Assembly (NCBI GenBank): GCA_028700115.1
Contig: JAQVTI010000010.1
Coordinates: forward strand, 1 to 32,000
Length of the DNA: 32,000 nucleotides
Origin: Candidatus Iainarchaeum sp.
Lineage (GTDB): Archaea > Iainarchaeota > Iainarchaeia > Iainarchaeales > CSSED10-239
Direction: 5' to 3'
The position numbers and the translations under genes were made by a program. Shown here in pieces: positions 1 to 5,361 of this stretch; the first letter of the stretch is position 1; every line of letters starts with the position of its first letter. The notes under the pieces were generated by a model that did not search any database, was not told the origin of the DNA, and saw nothing but the letters and a program-made list of their open reading frames with translations.

Positions 1-406
1 TGCCTTCTGACACCCTTATTCCACTAAATAAGAAAAGAAGATATAATGGCTTTAAATCTTCTCTTAGCTTAGATAAAGTAACTTTTATTTCTTGATCTGT
101 TGGAACATAAGTGTCATTTGAAAAATTAATATCCTTTTTTAATAGTTTTTTACAAGAATCTATGTTTTCTTGAGAGAATCCTTCATCTTTAAGATAATTT
201 AAAAACTTTGACACAATTTTTCTACTACTTTGAGTATTATTAACCAAATCTATGTTTTTTTTATAATCTTCAAGCAGTTCTTGATGGTTTTTATATATAT
301 TTTTACTAAAGATGCTGTTTAATTTAGCAAGAGATTTATAGTATCCTTTAGAGTGATTTTCTTCTAAAACCTTTATTTTAAAGGCATCAAGAGAAATAGT
401 TTGACA
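1..406 (-). CDS. tyrosine recombinase/integrase fragment (no start codon; C-terminal part runs off the window edge)
   Basis: The minus-strand frame is open from 457 to 1. It is absent from the ORF track because it has no Met. Translation: ...SRKIVSKFLNYLKDEGFSQENID...VPTDQEIKVTLSKLREDLKPLYLLFLFSGIRVSEG. This is an N-terminal core-binding-like region followed by the box-I arginine motif (SG-I/L-R-x-SE) of tyrosine recombinases. It directly abuts the 3' end of tRNA-Thr. Confidence 0.6.
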
Positions 407-478
407 AGCTTCTGGCGGGAGTCGAACCCGCGACCTCAACCTTACCAAGGTTGCGCTCTACCACTGAGCCACAGAAGC
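407..478 (-). tRNA. tRNA-Thr (anticodon GGU), no encoded CCA
   Basis: Manual cloverleaf on the minus strand: GCTTCTG TG GCTC AGTGGTA GAGC G CAACC TTGGTAA GGTTG AGGTC GCGGG TTCGACT CCCGC CAGAAGC T. All four stems are Watson-Crick. The anticodon loop is TT-GGT-AA. Confidence 0.9.
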
Positions 479-1509: not shown

Positions 1510-1547
1510 ATATAAAATCTCTAAATATTATTTTATAAGAAAAGAAA

Positions 1548-2148
1548 TTACTTAAGTAATTTCTTCTTTAATTCTTCATATTTAAAATCCTCTTTTAAAA
1601 GACCCATAGAAAACATATCTTGATGCTTTCCTTTATAAAAATAATCTTTTCTTAAATAACCTTCTTGAATAAAACCTAATTTTTCTAAATGCTTTTTACT
1701 TCTTGGATTATATGAAAAAACAAGAGAATAAATTTTAACTAAATTTAAATATTTAAAAGCAAATTTATATAACTCTAATTTTGCTTCAAAAATATACCCT
1801 GTGCCCCAATTTTTTAGTTATACAAGAACCACTTTCACATTTTTTACTTTTAAAATCAATATGATTTAAAGAAACCCCACCTATAACCCTATTTTCTTTT
1901 TTTAAAAAAACAGCAAAATCAATTCCTGCATCTTTCTTTTTTTTATAACAAAATCTTTTCTTTTTAAAAAAAGTATCTGCATCTTTTAAAGTATAAGGAT
2001 ATGGAAAGTTAGGAATGTTTTTAGAATATACTTTTGAATCATTATAATTTTTAACTAAATCATTTCTATCCTCTTTTCTAAAAGGCCTTAATATTAAATT
2101 TTCTGTTTCAAGATATAAATCTTTTTTATATATTTTATTTGAGTCCAT
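1548..2148 (-). pseudogene. GNAT N-acetyltransferase (RimJ/RimL-like), frameshifted in a poly(A) run
   Basis: The N-terminal part (ATG at 2148) reads MDSNKIYKKDLYLETENLILRPFRKEDRNDL...VIGGVSL. After the A6 run (T-run 1810-1815 on +) the family-typical sequence continues in another frame: KNWGTGYIFEAKLELYKFAFKYLNLVKIYSLVFSYNPRSKKHLEKLGFIQEGYLRKDYFYKGKHQDMFSMGLLKEDF, ending at TAA 1548-1550. Deleting one A restores a single ORF. Confidence 0.65.
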
Positions 2149-2207
2149 AAATAGATTATAGATTAAAAACAATTATAAATATTAAATAAAATAAGAAAAA
2201 GAAAAAT

Positions 2208-3194
2208 TTACTTAAATCTTCTTTTATTTAGTCTAGATCTTGTAAATTTATCACTAAGCTTAGAAAAAACATTTTTCTTTGCATGTCTTTTTGCAATAGT
2301 TTCTCTAACACCTTTTGGATATTTTTCTTTTAGTTTTTCTATAAAAACATATGGATTTGCTTCTCTTCCTGAGTTATTAACCCATTTAATTACAGCTTCT
2401 GCAGTCTCTTTTCTAATATCTCCAATTGTTGCTTTTGTTTTTCCTTCCATATGTTTAGCAATTATATTTGCTTGTATATTTTCTATTATCTCTCTATTAT
2501 TTCTTAAAGAATCAATTATAGCAATCTTCTTACTAGAACCCATTCCTGAAAATCTATAATATTTCCAACTAAATTCTTTTATTTCATTCTCATATAAAGA
2601 AAATAATTTACCTAATCTTTTATTAACTTTTAAAGATTCTGTATGATTAATAGACAAAAATCTTGGGACATTTAAAACTCTTTCAATTGCTTGTTTTCTA
2701 GAAACCCCATATAATAATTCTATATTTTTTAATCTTTTTTCATGATCGAATGAAATAAATTGAGGAAAATTTTTTATAAGATTTTTTGTAATTTCTTTAG
2801 AAACACCATAAGTTTTAGAAATATTATTGAATTTTACTTCAAAATTAGTATATATTGAAGGAAATGCTAAAAACAATTCTTTTGTTTTATTAATAGGCAA
2901 ATCTAAAAAATTAGAAAGACTTGTAAGATTTATTTTATGATTATAATTTAAAACATTTGGAGTATATCTAATTAATTTTAAAGTTTTTGAAACAGTTATA
3001 TTATAAATAGTCATAATTTCAGAAATTTTTGAAGAAATAAACTCTCTACTTGGATAAGAATTCTTCCTTGCAAAAACATCTCTTAAAGATCTTAAAAATT
3101 TAATATCTTCTTTTTTATTTAAATCTAAAGATAAAGCTTCAACAATAAATCTTTTTCTTTTTCTATTTTCTTCTAAACTAATTTTATTAACCAT
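2208..3194 (-). CDS. helical-repeat protein, mTERF-like repeat pattern (tentative)
   Basis: The 328-aa ORF has about five tandem ~32-aa units of the form G-V-S-x3-I/L-x3-L/I-x3-P-x-F/I-L/I-S-x5-L. Examples: IRYTPNVLNYNHKINLTSLSNFL, LFLAFPSIYTNFEVKFNNISKTY, GVSKEITKNLIKNFPQFISFDHEKRLKNIELLY, GVSRKQAIERVLNVPRFLSINHTESLKVNKRL. The call rests on pattern recognition only. Confidence 0.4.
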   Translation of the reverse strand: MVNKISLEENRKRKRFIVEALSLDLNKKEDIKFLRSLRDVFARKNSYPSREFISSKISEIMTIYNITVSKTLKLIRYTPNVLNYNHKINLTSLSNFLDLPINKTKELFLAFPSIYTNFEVKFNNISKTYGVSKEITKNLIKNFPQFISFDHEKRLKNIELLYGVSRKQAIERVLNVPRFLSINHTESLKVNKRLGKLFSLYENEIKEFSWKYYRFSGMGSSKKIAIIDSLRNNREIIENIQANIIAKHMEGKTKATIGDIRKETAEAVIKWVNNSGREANPYVFIEKLKEKYPKGVRETIAKRHAKKNVFSKLSDKFTRSRLNKRRFK

Positions 3195-3246
3195 ATATAA
3201 TTAAAAGAATTAAAAGTATATAAATTTATTTATTTTAAAAAAAGAG

Positions 3247-3329
3247 CGCAGAGGACGAGACTCGAACTCGCGTAGTCCAAAGACTCCAGCTCTCTAGGCT
3301 GGTGCGTTTGACCACTCCGCCACCTCTGC
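3247..3329 (-). tRNA. class II (long variable arm) tRNA, canonical fold gives anticodon AGA (Ser), discriminator G73
   Basis: Minus strand: GCAGAGG TG GCG GAGTGGTCAAA CGC A CCAGC CTAGAGA GCTGG AGTCTTTGGACTAC GCGAG TTCGAGT CTCGT CCTCTGC G. The 14-nt variable arm forms the stem AGTC/GACT. The 5-bp anticodon stem leaves the loop C-T-AGA-G-A. Confidence 0.8.
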
Positions 3330-3363
3330 ATATTTAATTAATATATAAAAGAGTTTAAAAAGA

Positions 3364-3699
3364 CTAATGAATATTTGACCCATTTTCAATTTTCTCAGAA
3401 GGAAAAAGTAATGCTTCAACTTCATTTTCACCAATTGCAAGAATCATTCCTTGACTTTCAAGACCCATTAATTTTCTTGGTTCTAAGTTTACAATTACAG
3501 GAAGTTGTTTATTTAATAAATCTTCAGGATTATATTTAGTTCCTATTCCTGCAAGGATTTGTCTTTTAAAATTACCAAAATCAAAAACTAATCTTAAAAG
3601 CTTATTACTTTTTTCAACTCTTTCTGCTTCAATAATTTCTCCTAATCTTATATCTAATTTCATAAAAGTTAAAAAATCTATATTTTCTTTAATATTCAT
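3364..3699 (-). CDS. tRNA-binding domain protein (Trbp111/CsaA/MetRS C-terminal-like OB fold)
   Basis: MNIKENIDFLTFMKLDIRLGEIIEAERVEKSNKLLRLVFDFGNFKRQILAGIGTKYNPEDLLNKQLPVIVNLEPRKLMGLESQGMILAIG is the classic signature of the EMAPII/Trbp111-type tRNA-binding domain. The start was moved to ATG 3699 because the track's upstream extension overlaps tRNA-His. Confidence 0.8.
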   Translation of the reverse strand: MNIKENIDFLTFMKLDIRLGEIIEAERVEKSNKLLRLVFDFGNFKRQILAGIGTKYNPEDLLNKQLPVIVNLEPRKLMGLESQGMILAIGENEVEALLFPSEKIENGSNIH

Positions 3700-3726
3700 A
3701 AACAAACACATATAAAATTTCAAAAG

Positions 3727-3799
3727 GGTCCAAGCCGGGATTTGAACCCGAGCCAGGGGATCCACAGTCCCCTATGCTAACCACTACACTACATGGACC
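3727..3799 (-). tRNA. tRNA-His (anticodon GUG) with genomically encoded G-1
   Basis: Minus strand: G(-1) GTCCATG TA GTGT AGTGGTTA GCAT A GGGGA CTGTGGA TCCCC TGGC TCGGG TTCAAAT CCCGG CTTGGAC C. G-1 lies opposite C73, the His identity feature. There is one U-U mismatch in the acceptor stem. Confidence 0.88.
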
Positions 3800-3915
3800 A
3801 TTATAAACATTATTTTTATTAAATTAAAAATAATTTTAATAAAAAAACATCTAATTAGTAATATATATAAGATTAAATATATTTTTAAAGATTTCATAAA
3901 ACAATAATTAGATAT

Positions 3916-5361
3916 ATGAACATAAAAAATAAAAAAGGACAATCAGAAGTTATAAGTTATGTTATTATAATATTTATTGTAGCTATAATTGTATCAATAA
4001 TAATTACACAAATAAATCCAGTTATTTCAAAATCTAAATCAAAACAAAACTTTCAAACTTCAAAAACACAAATTGAACTAATTGAAAAAACAATAAAAGA
4101 AGTTATGCTAGAACCAACTAGTTCTTCTAAAAGCATAAGATTAGATTTAGAAAATTTATTTTTAAATGTAGACTCAGATTTAAACAAAATAGAAATATTT
4201 CATATAATGAGTGGAGACTACTATGAAAATGAAATAAAAATAAAAGAAGGAAATAAATTCACATATAGAGAAAATCAAAAACTTTTTTCAGGATTAGAAT
4301 TTGAAGACATAAATATAGTAAATAAACTTTTTATACAAAATAAAACCTTAGACTTATACTTTACAAAAACTTCAAGAAATACTTTAGAAATAACAACAGA
4401 TGTTATTGAAGATAGTAAATGGTATGATGAAGAATATAGTTATAGAACTAAACTATTAATAGATGCTAATAAAGTATATGGAGATTTAGAAAACTTTCCT
4501 GTTTTAATTAAAATAAATGATAGTGATATTTTAGAGAAAATAAAAGAAGATGGTTCAGATTTAGTTTTTACTCTTCCTGATGGAGAAACTAAACTTTATA
4601 GAGAAATTGAATATATTGATACAAGTGATGAGATTTTAGTTTGGGTAAATATACCTTATATAGATGATGAATTTGGAACTTTAATTTACATGTATTTTGG
4701 AAACTCTTTAGGTGATGAAGAAAACACAACAAAGACATGGAACAAAGATTATGTTTTAGTTCAACATCTAAATGAAACAAGTGGAACAATTTATGATTCT
4801 ACAAAATATGATAATGATGCAACTAATTATAGTGCAACTAGTGGAGCAACTGGACAAATTGGAAAAGCTTATTTTTTTAATGGAAGTTTATCATATTTAA
4901 CAATACCATCAACTACAATAGAAGAAAATGGAACTGTTTCTTTATGGATGGATATTAGTAATGCTACTAGTACACAATACTTTCTAGGAGGACCAGGCCA
5001 AGGGATAAGATATAATGGAACTTCTTTTTTGGTATTTAATGGTGGAAGTGAATGGGTTGCTTTAAATTGGAACAAAACAGGATATACTTGGATTAATTTA
5101 TATATTAAAAGAATAAATGCAAATGATTACAAAATTTATGTGAATGGAACAGAGATTGGAAACTCAATTGCAGGAAACACAGGAACAGATATAAGTTTAA
5201 ACTTAATTGGAAAAAGATCAGATGGTTATTATTTTAATGGAAGTTTAGATGAAATAAAAATTTCAAATAAATCAAAAAGTGAAGAATGGATAAAAACAGA
5301 ATATATAAATCAAAATAATCCTTTAGAGTTTTATGGAGTTGGTGAAATTGAAACTAACTAA
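3916..5361 (+). CDS. type IV pilin-like protein (class III signal peptide) with DUF2341-like and LamG/concanavalin-A-like lectin domains
   Basis: The N-terminus MNIKNKKGQ|SEVISYVIIIFIVAIIVSIII has a short basic leader, K-G-Q and a ~20-aa hydrophobic helix. From about 4420: WYDEEYSYRTKLLIDANKVYGDLENFPVLIKIN...DGSDLVFT...LVWVNIPYI...IYMYFGN (DUF2341-like). From about 4750: LNETSGTIYDSTKYDNDAT...GKAYFFNGSLSYLTIP...LDEIKISNKSKSEEWIKTEY (Laminin_G_3-like). Confidence 0.75.
   Translation: MNIKNKKGQSEVISYVIIIFIVAIIVSIIITQINPVISKSKSKQNFQTSKTQIELIEKTIKEVMLEPTSSSKSIRLDLENLFLNVDSDLNKIEIFHIMSGDYYENEIKIKEGNKFTYRENQKLFSGLEFEDINIVNKLFIQNKTLDLYFTKTSRNTLEITTDVIEDSKWYDEEYSYRTKLLIDANKVYGDLENFPVLIKINDSDILEKIKEDGSDLVFTLPDGETKLYREIEYIDTSDEILVWVNIPYIDDEFGTLIYMYFGNSLGDEENTTKTWNKDYVLVQHLNETSGTIYDSTKYDNDATNYSATSGATGQIGKAYFFNGSLSYLTIPSTTIEENGTVSLWMDISNATSTQYFLGGPGQGIRYNGTSFLVFNGGSEWVALNWNKTGYTWINLYIKRINANDYKIYVNGTEIGNSIAGNTGTDISLNLIGKRSDGYYFNGSLDEIKISNKSKSEEWIKTEYINQNNPLEFYGVGEIETN

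What the first reader, a model, noticed from the sequence alone, without database searches (positions are those of the whole stretch)
1..478. Start-less integrase ORF reading out of the 3' half of tRNA-Thr: signature of an SSV-type partitioned integrase
The minus-strand frame encoding the recombinase is open from position 457, inside tRNA-Thr (407-478), through to the window edge. Across about 150 codons it contains no ATG. It reaches the box-I arginine motif (LFLFSGIRVSEG) at the edge. The tRNA and the ORF run in the same direction, with the ORF immediately downstream of the tRNA 3' end.

This geometry is known from fusellovirus-type integrases, whose attP lies inside the int gene. Integration into a tRNA splits int into int(N) and int(C), and int(C) is left fused to the tRNA-derived att sequence. 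If that holds, an integrated virus or plasmid extends leftwards out of this window.
Basis: partly seen in the sequence, partly recalled or inferred. Interest (0 to 1): 0.6.

Follow-up and report, generated by a model that had tools for sequence, protein, structure and literature searches.

The report
Split SSV-type integrase at tRNA-Thr
The start-less gene at the window edge is the back half of an integrase that cut its own gene in two when a small mobile element inserted into the tRNA-Thr gene of a tiny DPANN (Iainarchaeota) archaeon; the mechanism is well known from hot-spring archaeal viruses and plasmids, and I found no report of it in this group.

Summary

The minus-strand frame is open from 457, inside tRNA-Thr(GGU) at 407-478, to the window edge. 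That edge is a contig end. The frame has no ATG, and its first plausible start outside the tRNA is codon 71.

The predicted partner exists. A perfect 48-bp copy of window 406-453 lies on contig C23 (511-558). A 77-codon ATG ORF (C23:327-560) reads into it in the same frame. Joining the two gives a stop-free 212-codon N-terminus. In a 98%-identical strain (L068) the same join gives a 340-aa integrase with the SSV1-type R...KxxR...Y signature.

The family is Pfam PF16795, and its nearest solved structures are those of the SSV1 integrase. Unsplit homologues exist (P0075, P0092). The same split architecture recurs at tRNA-Ser in this genome and at tRNA-Met in a relative.

The locus is a composite, partly decayed island with one int(C), two int(N) copies and further att remnants. 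The catalytic end of int(C) is not assembled here.

The scan had already reported the tRNA-Ser element of this genome. This is a new member of a known kind.

The parts
407..478 (-). Intact tRNA-Thr(GGU) gene. Its 5' 25 nt (478-454) are host-derived; its 3' part lies inside the att repeat.
   Evidence: ARAGORN. An identical 72-nt tRNA occurs in same-genus genomes G027, which has no integrase, and G030.
406..453 (.). attL: a 48-bp direct repeat running from the anticodon stem to one base past the 3' end of the tRNA. Its perfect partner (outer attR) is C23:511-558 on another contig.
   Evidence: BLAST and k-mer search of the whole genome give a 48/48 match and no other long copy. Flanks differ on both sides. 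In strain L068 both copies carry the same two-base tRNA variant and are again 48/48 identical.
2..405 (-). int(C): the element-encoded part of the split SSV-type integrase (linker, core-binding region and box I Arg in GIRVSEG). It is truncated by the contig end, so the KxxR and catalytic Tyr are not assembled here.
   Evidence: Open frame. PF16795 start match. P0002 and P0062 are 96-100% identical over the shared part and score over the PF16795 cut-off (92.8 bits for P0002; precomputed PF16795 for P0062). The region is collinear with the Ser and Met paralogues and with unsplit P0075.
406..457 (-). The part of the same reading frame that runs through the tRNA (peptide SATLVRLRSRVRLPPEA). This is the att-encoded linker of the integrase, not a translation start region.
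   Evidence: Translation. The same peptide ends int(N) on C23. In other lineages this peptide changes with the tRNA variant while its flanks stay conserved (P0066, P0070, P0080, P0084).
1..1 (.). End of contig C24. It lies within 2 nt of the point where related strains diverge: L068 and L006 continue with int(C), while L007 has an in-frame deletion. This is probably an assembly break caused by allelic or paralogous variation.
   Evidence: One search places the window at C24:1. Searches give the alignments of L006, L007 and L068 to C24:1-486. No contig-end overlap was found.

Best explanation
Window 2-457 (minus strand) is int(C), the C-terminal fragment of an SSV-type ('type I', 'suicidal') tyrosine integrase. 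It belongs to a small plasmid-like element integrated into the tRNA-Thr(GGU) gene of an Iainarchaeota (DPANN) archaeon.

Proposed mechanism. In the circular element the integrase gene is intact. It encodes a roughly 60-residue, possibly ribbon-helix-helix-like N-terminal domain, then 16 codons that are a copy of the 3' 48 nt of tRNA-Thr (attP), then a core-binding region and a PF16795 catalytic domain.

Recombination between attP and the identical tRNA segment (attB) inserts the element and regenerates an intact tRNA. It leaves int(C), without a start codon, fused to the tRNA at one end. It leaves int(N), with its ATG and upstream AT-rich region, reading into the second att copy at the other end.

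Here the other end is on contig C23. The locus has since become a composite island: one int(C), a proximal int(N) at the end of contig C10, a distal int(N) with the full att on C23, and older att remnants beyond.

What is shown: the sequence architecture, frame continuity, family membership, recurrence at other tRNAs, and the existence of unsplit homologues.

What is inferred: the recombination event itself, the order of the insertions, and the dependence of excision on an intact integrase supplied in trans (known from SSV2 and pTN3 according to PMC8371274).
For: 1. A perfect 48-bp att duplicate on C23, flanked by unrelated sequence.
2. An ATG ORF, C23:327-560, reads into att in the same frame as the window ORF and stops right after it. 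The joined ORF is 212 codons without a stop.
3. Strain L068 (NCBI GCA_028708135.1) has both att copies on one 116-kb contig. It is 98% identical to C24:1-481 and 96% identical to C23:1-558. Joining int(N) to int(C) there gives a 340-aa protein with GIRVSE...KYCR...NHY.
4. Family: PF16795 at 92.8 bits for P0002. Paralogue C7 matches the SSV1 integrase structures 3VCF, 4DKS and 3UXU at E about 6e-9. The model of homologue P0075 is closest to the same structures, with TM 0.79 on the target.
5. Unsplit homologues have the same N-terminal domain. P0075 (343 aa) lies on a 4.7-kb contig with a D5_N/DUF5906 primase-helicase and has a tRNA T-arm-like sequence inside the gene. P0092 is 330 aa.
6. The same split recurs at tRNA-Ser in this genome (C1/C44/C18; reconstituted 362 aa) and at tRNA-Met on a single contig of G044 (349 aa).
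7. Same-genus genome G027 has the identical tRNA-Thr with no integrase after it.
8. No start codon lies between 406 and 248, although that stretch is conserved in homologues.
Against: - The window's int(C) stops at box I, so KxxR and the catalytic Tyr are unseen in this genome.
- C24 and C23 are not physically joined in this assembly. The link rests on att identity, frame, and synteny in L068 and L007.
- The island holds two int(N) copies (C10 end and C23). In L068, L007 and G028 the proximal one keeps only 12-13 nt of att. The perfect att partner may therefore belong to an older element than the window's int(C).
- Close relatives carry damaged int(C): L007 has an in-frame deletion and L006 has lost the Tyr region. 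The copy here may be a fossil.
- No unsplit Thr-type gene or attP junction was found.
Confidence: 0.9

Rival explanations
1. The gene is an intact pNOB8-type (type II) integrase next to its tRNA target. It starts at a non-ATG codon just downstream of the tRNA, and att lies outside the gene.
For: Gene callers in public data start homologues at internal TTG or at TTG/GTG inside the tRNA (P0001, P0002, P0062, P0017). Integrases abutting tRNAs are common.
Against: There is no ATG/GTG/TTG between 406 and 248. Residues encoded by 405-248 align with conserved residues of paralogues and of unsplit P0075. int(N) reads into the second att copy in frame. Relatives carry KxxR (KYCR), not the YxxR of the pNOB8 type (signature from PMC8371274).
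Confidence: 0.02
2. The short C23 ORF is an independent RHH/CopG-like regulator gene. Its frame continuity with the window ORF across the repeat is coincidental.
For: It has its own ATG and an AT-rich upstream region. It gives weak CcdA/ParG-like hits (E 0.08-0.13). It is kept intact in two copies, with dN/dS about 0.1 between the two types.
Against: The same domain is the N-terminus of the unsplit integrases P0075 and P0092. In three independent tRNA targets (Thr, Ser, Met) int(N) and int(C) share the frame through att. Most of the 36 clusters found with the int(N) profile are 67-109 aa; all six short ones I read end in tRNA-derived peptide or read into tRNA-like sequence.
Confidence: 0.03
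3. The architecture is as described, but the element is a dead relic. The int(C) of this genome carries a deletion or truncation like L007 or L006, and the island can no longer move even with help.
For: Two of three close strains have damaged int(C). The proximal att is reduced to 12-13 nt in relatives. The contig ends exactly at the L007 deletion breakpoint. No free form was found.
Against: L068 has an intact int(C) and perfect 48-bp outer repeats, as does this genome. This refines the best explanation and does not replace it.
Confidence: 0.45

Closest known systems
SSV1/SSV2 fusellovirus integrase (type I, SSV-type; PDB 3VCF, 3UXU, 4DKS)
   Same: PF16795 catalytic domain. R...KxxR...Y signature in near-identical relatives. 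attP lies inside the int ORF. The target is the 3' part of a tRNA gene. Integration yields int(N) with a start codon at one end and a start-less int(C) fused to the tRNA at the other, and the tRNA is regenerated.
   Different: Sequence identity to the SSV1 catalytic domain is only about 20-23%. The host is a 22% G+C DPANN archaeon, not a Sulfolobales hyperthermophile. No virion genes were seen. The element looks like a small plasmid: a weak prim-pol-like gene plus an M78/DUF4411 pair in L068. The N-terminal domain may be RHH-like; that call is weak.
Suicidal integrases of Thermococcales/Archaeoglobales plasmids pTN3 and pT26-2 (PMC7253208, PMC8371274)
   Same: Plasmid-borne SSV-family integrases that split on integration into tRNA genes. 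Several related copies occur per genome. Tandem integrations occur and int(N)/int(C) moieties are shuffled. A few mesophilic Methanosarcinales members are known.
   Different: Different host phylum and a different sequence cluster. No biochemical data exist here. No sign of the extra pTN3 subdomains was looked for.
The ~15-kb tRNA-Ser element of this same genome (earlier scan finding e1-2517486)
   Same: Same integrase family (33% identity over the reconstituted part), same int(N) domain, and same in-frame split across the tRNA 3' part.
   Different: It has a different tRNA target and integrase lineage. The Ser element is fully traceable through contig overlaps. The Thr island is broken over at least three contigs and is composite.
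pNOB8-type (type II) archaeal integrases and the lambda paradigm
   Same: Tyrosine recombinase integrating at a tRNA gene with direct att repeats.
   Different: In those systems att lies outside the gene, which stays intact. Here the gene is partitioned, and the box II motif in relatives is KxxR, not YxxR.

Membership tests
SSV-type (type I, 'suicidal') archaeal integrases | Catalytic domain of Pfam PF16795 (Phage_integr_3) | tested here: met
   The window fragment matches only profile positions 1-39 (17-19 bits, below the cut-off) because the contig end truncates it. P0002, 99-100% identical over the shared 82 residues, scores 92.8 bits. Paralogues score 97-101 bits. PDB and Foldseek best hits are the SSV1 integrase.
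SSV-type (type I, 'suicidal') archaeal integrases | Active-site signature R...KxxR...Y (signature as stated in PMC8371274) | tested here: inconclusive
   Only the first Arg (GIRVSEG) lies in the window. KYCR and NHY are present in the 98%-identical L068 copy and invariant in the family alignment. They are unassembled in this genome and lost in strains L006 and L007.
SSV-type (type I, 'suicidal') archaeal integrases | attP lies inside the integrase ORF, so integration leaves int(N) and int(C) at opposite ends, each joined to an att copy in one common frame | tested here: met
   int(C) is window 457->2. int(N) is C23:327-560. They share a 48-bp att in the same frame, and the joined ORF has no stop. 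The same holds on the single contig L068. Caveat: the island is composite, with a second int(N) on C10.
SSV-type (type I, 'suicidal') archaeal integrases | An uninterrupted int gene exists in the free (episomal or viral) form | tested here: inconclusive
   Unsplit homologues were found: P0075 on a 4.7-kb primase-helicase contig, and P0092. They are only about 32% identical to the Thr-type protein. No unsplit Thr-type gene or attP junction was found.
SSV-type (type I, 'suicidal') archaeal integrases | Site-specific integration and excision activity at the att site | not testable with these tools
Indirect evidence: integrase-free same-genus genome G027 has the same tRNA with no insert.
pNOB8-type (type II) archaeal integrases | An intact integrase gene with its own start codon after integration, and att outside the ORF | tested here: not met
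   No start codon lies between the tRNA end and codon 71. The frame runs through att.
pNOB8-type (type II) archaeal integrases | Box II motif YxxR | tested here: not met
   Relatives and the L068 copy have KYCR, which is KxxR. This is not visible in the window itself.

The most novel reading that the evidence does not exclude
After integration, Int(N) may not be a dead pseudogene product. It may be a free-standing, possibly ribbon-helix-helix-like DNA-binding protein expressed from its own promoter, acting as a repressor, immunity factor or directionality factor for the island and for incoming related elements.

This would explain three observations: islands keep two intact int(N) copies while int(C) decays; int(N) types differ mostly by synonymous changes (dN/dS about 0.1); and the split form dominates metagenomic data.

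Together with the host range, this would make self-splitting integrases a general archaeal strategy, found in DPANN, Methanosarcinales and Nanoarchaeota as well as in hyperthermophiles.
Probability: 0.15. Interest if true: 0.6.

Novelty: new member of a known kind. Interest (0 to 1): 0.4.

Why it matters
Self-splitting ('suicidal') integrases are described as an archaea-only peculiarity, mainly of hyperthermophiles: Sulfolobales, Thermococcales and Archaeoglobales, with a few Methanosarcinales members (PMC8371274, PMC7253208).

This locus and its paralogues show the same system operating in Iainarchaeota, which are small-genome, very AT-rich DPANN archaea. At least three tRNA targets are used, insertions are stacked, and some paralogous elements carry defence genes (Shedu, type III R-M).

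The finding gives a handle on the poorly known mobile elements of DPANN archaea. It explains why these MAGs break at tRNA and integrase loci, and it warns annotators that start-less 'integrase' ORFs and small RHH-like ORFs next to tRNA halves are two halves of one gene.

The mechanism itself is not new.

Tried and rejected
- Contig-end overlaps: none for the C24 or C23 starts. The interior of the island could not be stitched.
- PF00589 search of the genome found only a Xer-like gene on C40. It is not the missing half.
- C20's integrase C-terminus was considered as the continuation of the window ORF. I rejected it: it is 90% identical to the C7 type and only about 81% identical in DNA to the L006 Thr type.
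- IMG/VR scans with the int(N) profile, with the C7 int(C), and with an exact attP-junction pattern all found nothing.
- The metagenome scan with int(N) found only strain variants of the same locus.
- G030 (same genus) has the same tRNA-Thr plus an int(C), but no second att copy in the 20 kb fetched on the element side of the tRNA or anywhere in its genome. It was not usable as a model.
- Pfam on int(N) gave only sub-threshold CcdA/ParG/DUF7063 hits. AlphaFold on P0075 left residues 1-32 and 45-69 at low confidence. The RHH fold is therefore a suggestion, not a result.
- The sigma-70 promoter scan is not informative for an archaeon.
- Wu et al. 2024 (Nat Microbiol, DPANN viruses and MGEs) is not held in the library. 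It may already mention such integrases.

Full report
**1. What is in the window**

ARAGORN places an intact tRNA-Thr (anticodon GGT) at 407-478 on the minus strand. Translating the minus strand from 478 gives one stop at codon 7. After that the frame is open from 457 to position 2: 152 codons ending in LFLFSGIRVSEG.

The frame holds no ATG. The only canonical alternative starts before codon 71 are two TTG codons at 448 and 439, both inside the tRNA. The next candidates are TTG at 247 and GTG at 214.

With this base composition (about 22% G+C), a 152-codon stop-free run has a chance probability of about 2.6e-7. Absence of ATG alone is not unusual: 43 of 732 long frames in the genome also lack one.

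The end of the ORF matches the first 39 positions of Pfam PF16795, 'Archaeal phage integrase', below the cut-off. Window position 1 is the first base of contig C24 of a 965-kb, 47-contig MAG. The gene is therefore cut by a contig end.

**2. The predicted partner exists**

A whole-genome search finds exactly one other long copy of the tRNA 3' part. Window 406-453 equals C23:511-558, 48/48 bp, with C23 plus strand corresponding to the tRNA-sense strand. Sequences on both sides of the repeat are unrelated.

On C23 a 77-codon ORF starting with ATG (327-560) reads into the repeat and stops with a TAA that overlaps the last repeat base. Its sequence is MARPKKLEKNKK...NLSTLVRLRSRVRLPPEA. The frame through the repeat is the same as in the window, which reads SATLVRLRSRVRLPPEACQTISL....

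An A/T-rich TTTTTAAA box lies 23-30 nt upstream of the ATG. I read this from the sequence; as a TATA box for a leaderless mRNA it is only an inference.

Joining C23:327-558 to the reverse complement of window 1-405 gives 212 codons without a stop.

**3. Physical linkage and the full-length protein come from close strains**

Three public contigs carry the same locus at 98-99.6% identity to C24:1-486: L006, L007 and L068.

L068 (NCBI GCA_028708135.1, a 116.6-kb contig) reads in this order:
- tRNA-Thr;
- an intact int(C) (P0062, ending ...KYCRKWFYTKCIELGIPESIADFYQGRVSSSVGANHYLSRQ...);
- a 429-aa protein with weak prim-pol similarity (Pfam E 0.016; PHROG 2478 E 3.7e-4);
- an M78 peptidase and a DUF4411 protein;
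- int(N) copy 1, followed by only 12-13 nt of att;
- about 4.3 kb of methyltransferase, SpoU and flavoprotein genes;
- a segment 96% identical to C23:1-558, which is int(N) copy 2 plus a full att.

In L068 the two 48-bp copies are again identical to each other. Both carry the same two-base variant of the T-stem relative to this genome. Joining int(N) copy 2, att and int(C) of L068 gives a 340-aa protein.

This genome also has both int(N) types. Contig C10 (3.3 kb) ends inside a copy-1-type int(N), and its first 238 nt match the end of the 429-aa gene of L068. The likely layout here is:

C24 (tRNA-att-int(C)...) - about 1.6 kb missing - C10 - int(N)1 - unassembled cargo - C23 (int(N)2-att).

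The missing pieces would be shorter than the smallest contig in the bin (2.5 kb).

C24 ends within 2 nt of the breakpoint of an in-frame deletion carried by strain L007, where RVSEG is joined directly to (T)NHYLSRQ. That fits an assembly bubble between alleles. This is an inference.

**4. Family membership**

- P0002, 99-100% identical to the window protein over the shared part, scores 92.8 bits on PF16795.
- The paralogue on C7 hits the SSV1 integrase catalytic-domain structures 3VCF, 4DKS and 3UXU at E about 6e-9.
- An AlphaFold model of homologue P0075 (mean pLDDT 73.5, high in the catalytic half) is closest to 3UXU and 3VCF, with target TM-score 0.79.
- The family alignments keep R (SG.R..E), K-Y-C-R and H-Y invariant. 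That is the SSV1-type R...KxxR...Y signature, distinct from the pNOB8-type YxxR (PMC8371274).

**5. The split is a property of the family**

tRNA-Ser in this genome. An int(C) reads out of tRNA-Ser(GCU) at the end of C1 and continues into C44. C44 overlaps C18 by 127 nt. On C18 an 80-codon int(N) reads in the same frame into a 54-nt copy of the tRNA-Ser 3' part (94% identity). The reconstituted protein is 362 aa. An earlier agent of this scan already reported this element (e1-2517486). I re-derived it independently.

tRNA-Met in a relative. In same-family genome G044 both halves lie 8.9 kb apart on one contig at a tRNA-Met. The reconstituted protein is 349 aa.

Homology among copies. The int(N) domains of the Thr, Ser and Met types are homologous (37% identity; tblastn E 2e-4 within the genome).

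Unsplit forms. P0075 (343 aa) sits on a 4.7-kb contig seen in 12 samples, next to a D5_N/DUF5906 primase-helicase. It has the same N-terminal domain followed by a tRNA T-arm/acceptor-like DNA segment inside the gene, then PF16795 at 96.9 bits. A profile of int(N) searched against 1.84 billion representatives finds 36 clusters. Most are 67-109 aa; I read six of the short ones. Four end in peptide translated from tRNA-Thr-like sequence, and the other two appear to read into tRNA-like sequence. One further hit, P0092, is an unsplit 330-aa integrase.

The tRNA dictates the linker. In Thr-type int(C) proteins from other metagenomes, the att-encoded peptide changes with the local tRNA-Thr variant (VRLRSRVRLPPEA versus VRTRSRVQISSGA). 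The flanking CQ.ISLDAFKIKVLEE stays conserved.

**6. Empty site and layering**

G027 is a single-contig genome of the same genus with no PF16795 or int(N) hit. It has the identical tRNA-Thr followed by about 290 nt and an AAA_14-type ATPase gene.

In this genome the homologous ATPase is at C23:1732-3042. It is preceded by a decayed copy of the tRNA 3' end (about 1690-1706) whose flank, GTGCACAAAA, resembles the G027 flank. A Fic gene (656-1597) lies between that remnant and the full att. A third remnant lies at 3789-3811. The window supplies both.

The simplest history is repeated integration into the regenerated tRNA, followed by deletions that removed older int(C) copies. This is an inference.

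**7. Host and distribution**

G030, assigned to the same genus as the window genome, is titled 'Candidatus Iainarchaeum archaeon'. The host is therefore an Iainarchaeota (DPANN) archaeon.

PF16795 is found in 8 of 215 genomes of the phylum, 6 of them (this genome included) in the window's family. Related integrases also occur in records labelled Nanoarchaeota and Methanosarcinales.

The 2021 review of archaeal tyrosine recombinases lists suicidal integrases for Sulfolobales, Thermococcales, Archaeoglobales and Methanosarcinales, and does not mention DPANN. Full-text searches found no paper combining these integrases with DPANN names. One possibly relevant paper, Wu et al. 2024, could not be read.

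**8. Verdict**

The mechanism is the known SSV-type partition. What is new is the host group and the composite state of the island.

Open points are whether the int(C) of this genome is intact, how the contigs join, and whether the island can still move. Close strains show both an intact copy (L068) and damaged copies (L006, L007).

Noticed in passing
Own genome contigs C7:40-928 (L011) and C4:3520-3593 (L012): A second tRNA-Thr(GGU) variant occurs in two different contexts. On C7 a complete int(C) (292-codon open frame, PF16795 101 bits) reads out of it in a different frame from the window's. A NucS/HSDR_N-like nuclease ORF follows. C4 has the same tRNA with an unrelated downstream flank. This may reflect a second strain or organism in the bin.
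   Followed up: partly
Own genome contig C20:2801-10183 (L015): The C-terminal end of yet another SSV-type integrase sits at a contig end. It is followed by a Shedu SduA_C protein and a type III restriction-modification pair (N6_N4 methylase, ResIII plus endonuclease). These elements appear to carry defence cargo.
   Followed up: partly
Own genome contig C23:559-3811 (L009): Downstream of the full att lie a Fic/DOC gene, a decayed tRNA-Thr 3' remnant (about 1690-1706), an AAA_14/DUF4143 ATPase, a broken methyltransferase and a third remnant (3789-3811). The tRNA-Thr locus is a layered integration hot spot.
   Followed up: partly
L048 (Logan SRR25528464 contig, 4745 bp): A small plasmid-like contig (36.6% G+C) seen in 12 samples. 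It encodes a D5_N/DUF5906 primase-helicase and an unsplit 343-aa SSV-type integrase with a tRNA T-arm-like attP inside the gene. No terminal repeat was found, so circularity is unproven.
   Followed up: partly
L028 (G044:C7), both ends of the tRNA-Met element: The direct repeat is about 90 nt. It runs past the tRNA 3' end into integrase coding sequence (SGQQFAVSGFK). It is longer than the tRNA-derived att seen at the Thr and Ser sites.
   Followed up: no
Window about 1541-4281 versus C23:10713-15708: In relatives (L006, L007, G027) the RuBisCO large-subunit gene, and in L006 also a SLAC1 gene, lie a few kb upstream of tRNA-Thr. In this genome their homologues are on C23, on the other side of the island, with RuBisCO inverted. 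This is a rearrangement next to the integration hot spot.
   Followed up: no
P0063 (NCBI record labelled Elusimicrobia bacterium GWA2_38_7): A PF16795 integrase of this family is attributed to a bacterial MAG. Its N-terminal residues look like a translated reverse-complement tRNA T-arm. The contig may be mis-binned, or the ORF may run antisense to its tRNA target.
   Followed up: no
Own genome: C23:1660-1690, C1 after tRNA-Ser, C4 after tRNA-Thr: A GCGCAATGGTT-like motif recurs just inside att boundaries of different elements. These are possible integrase arm or accessory binding sites.
   Followed up: no
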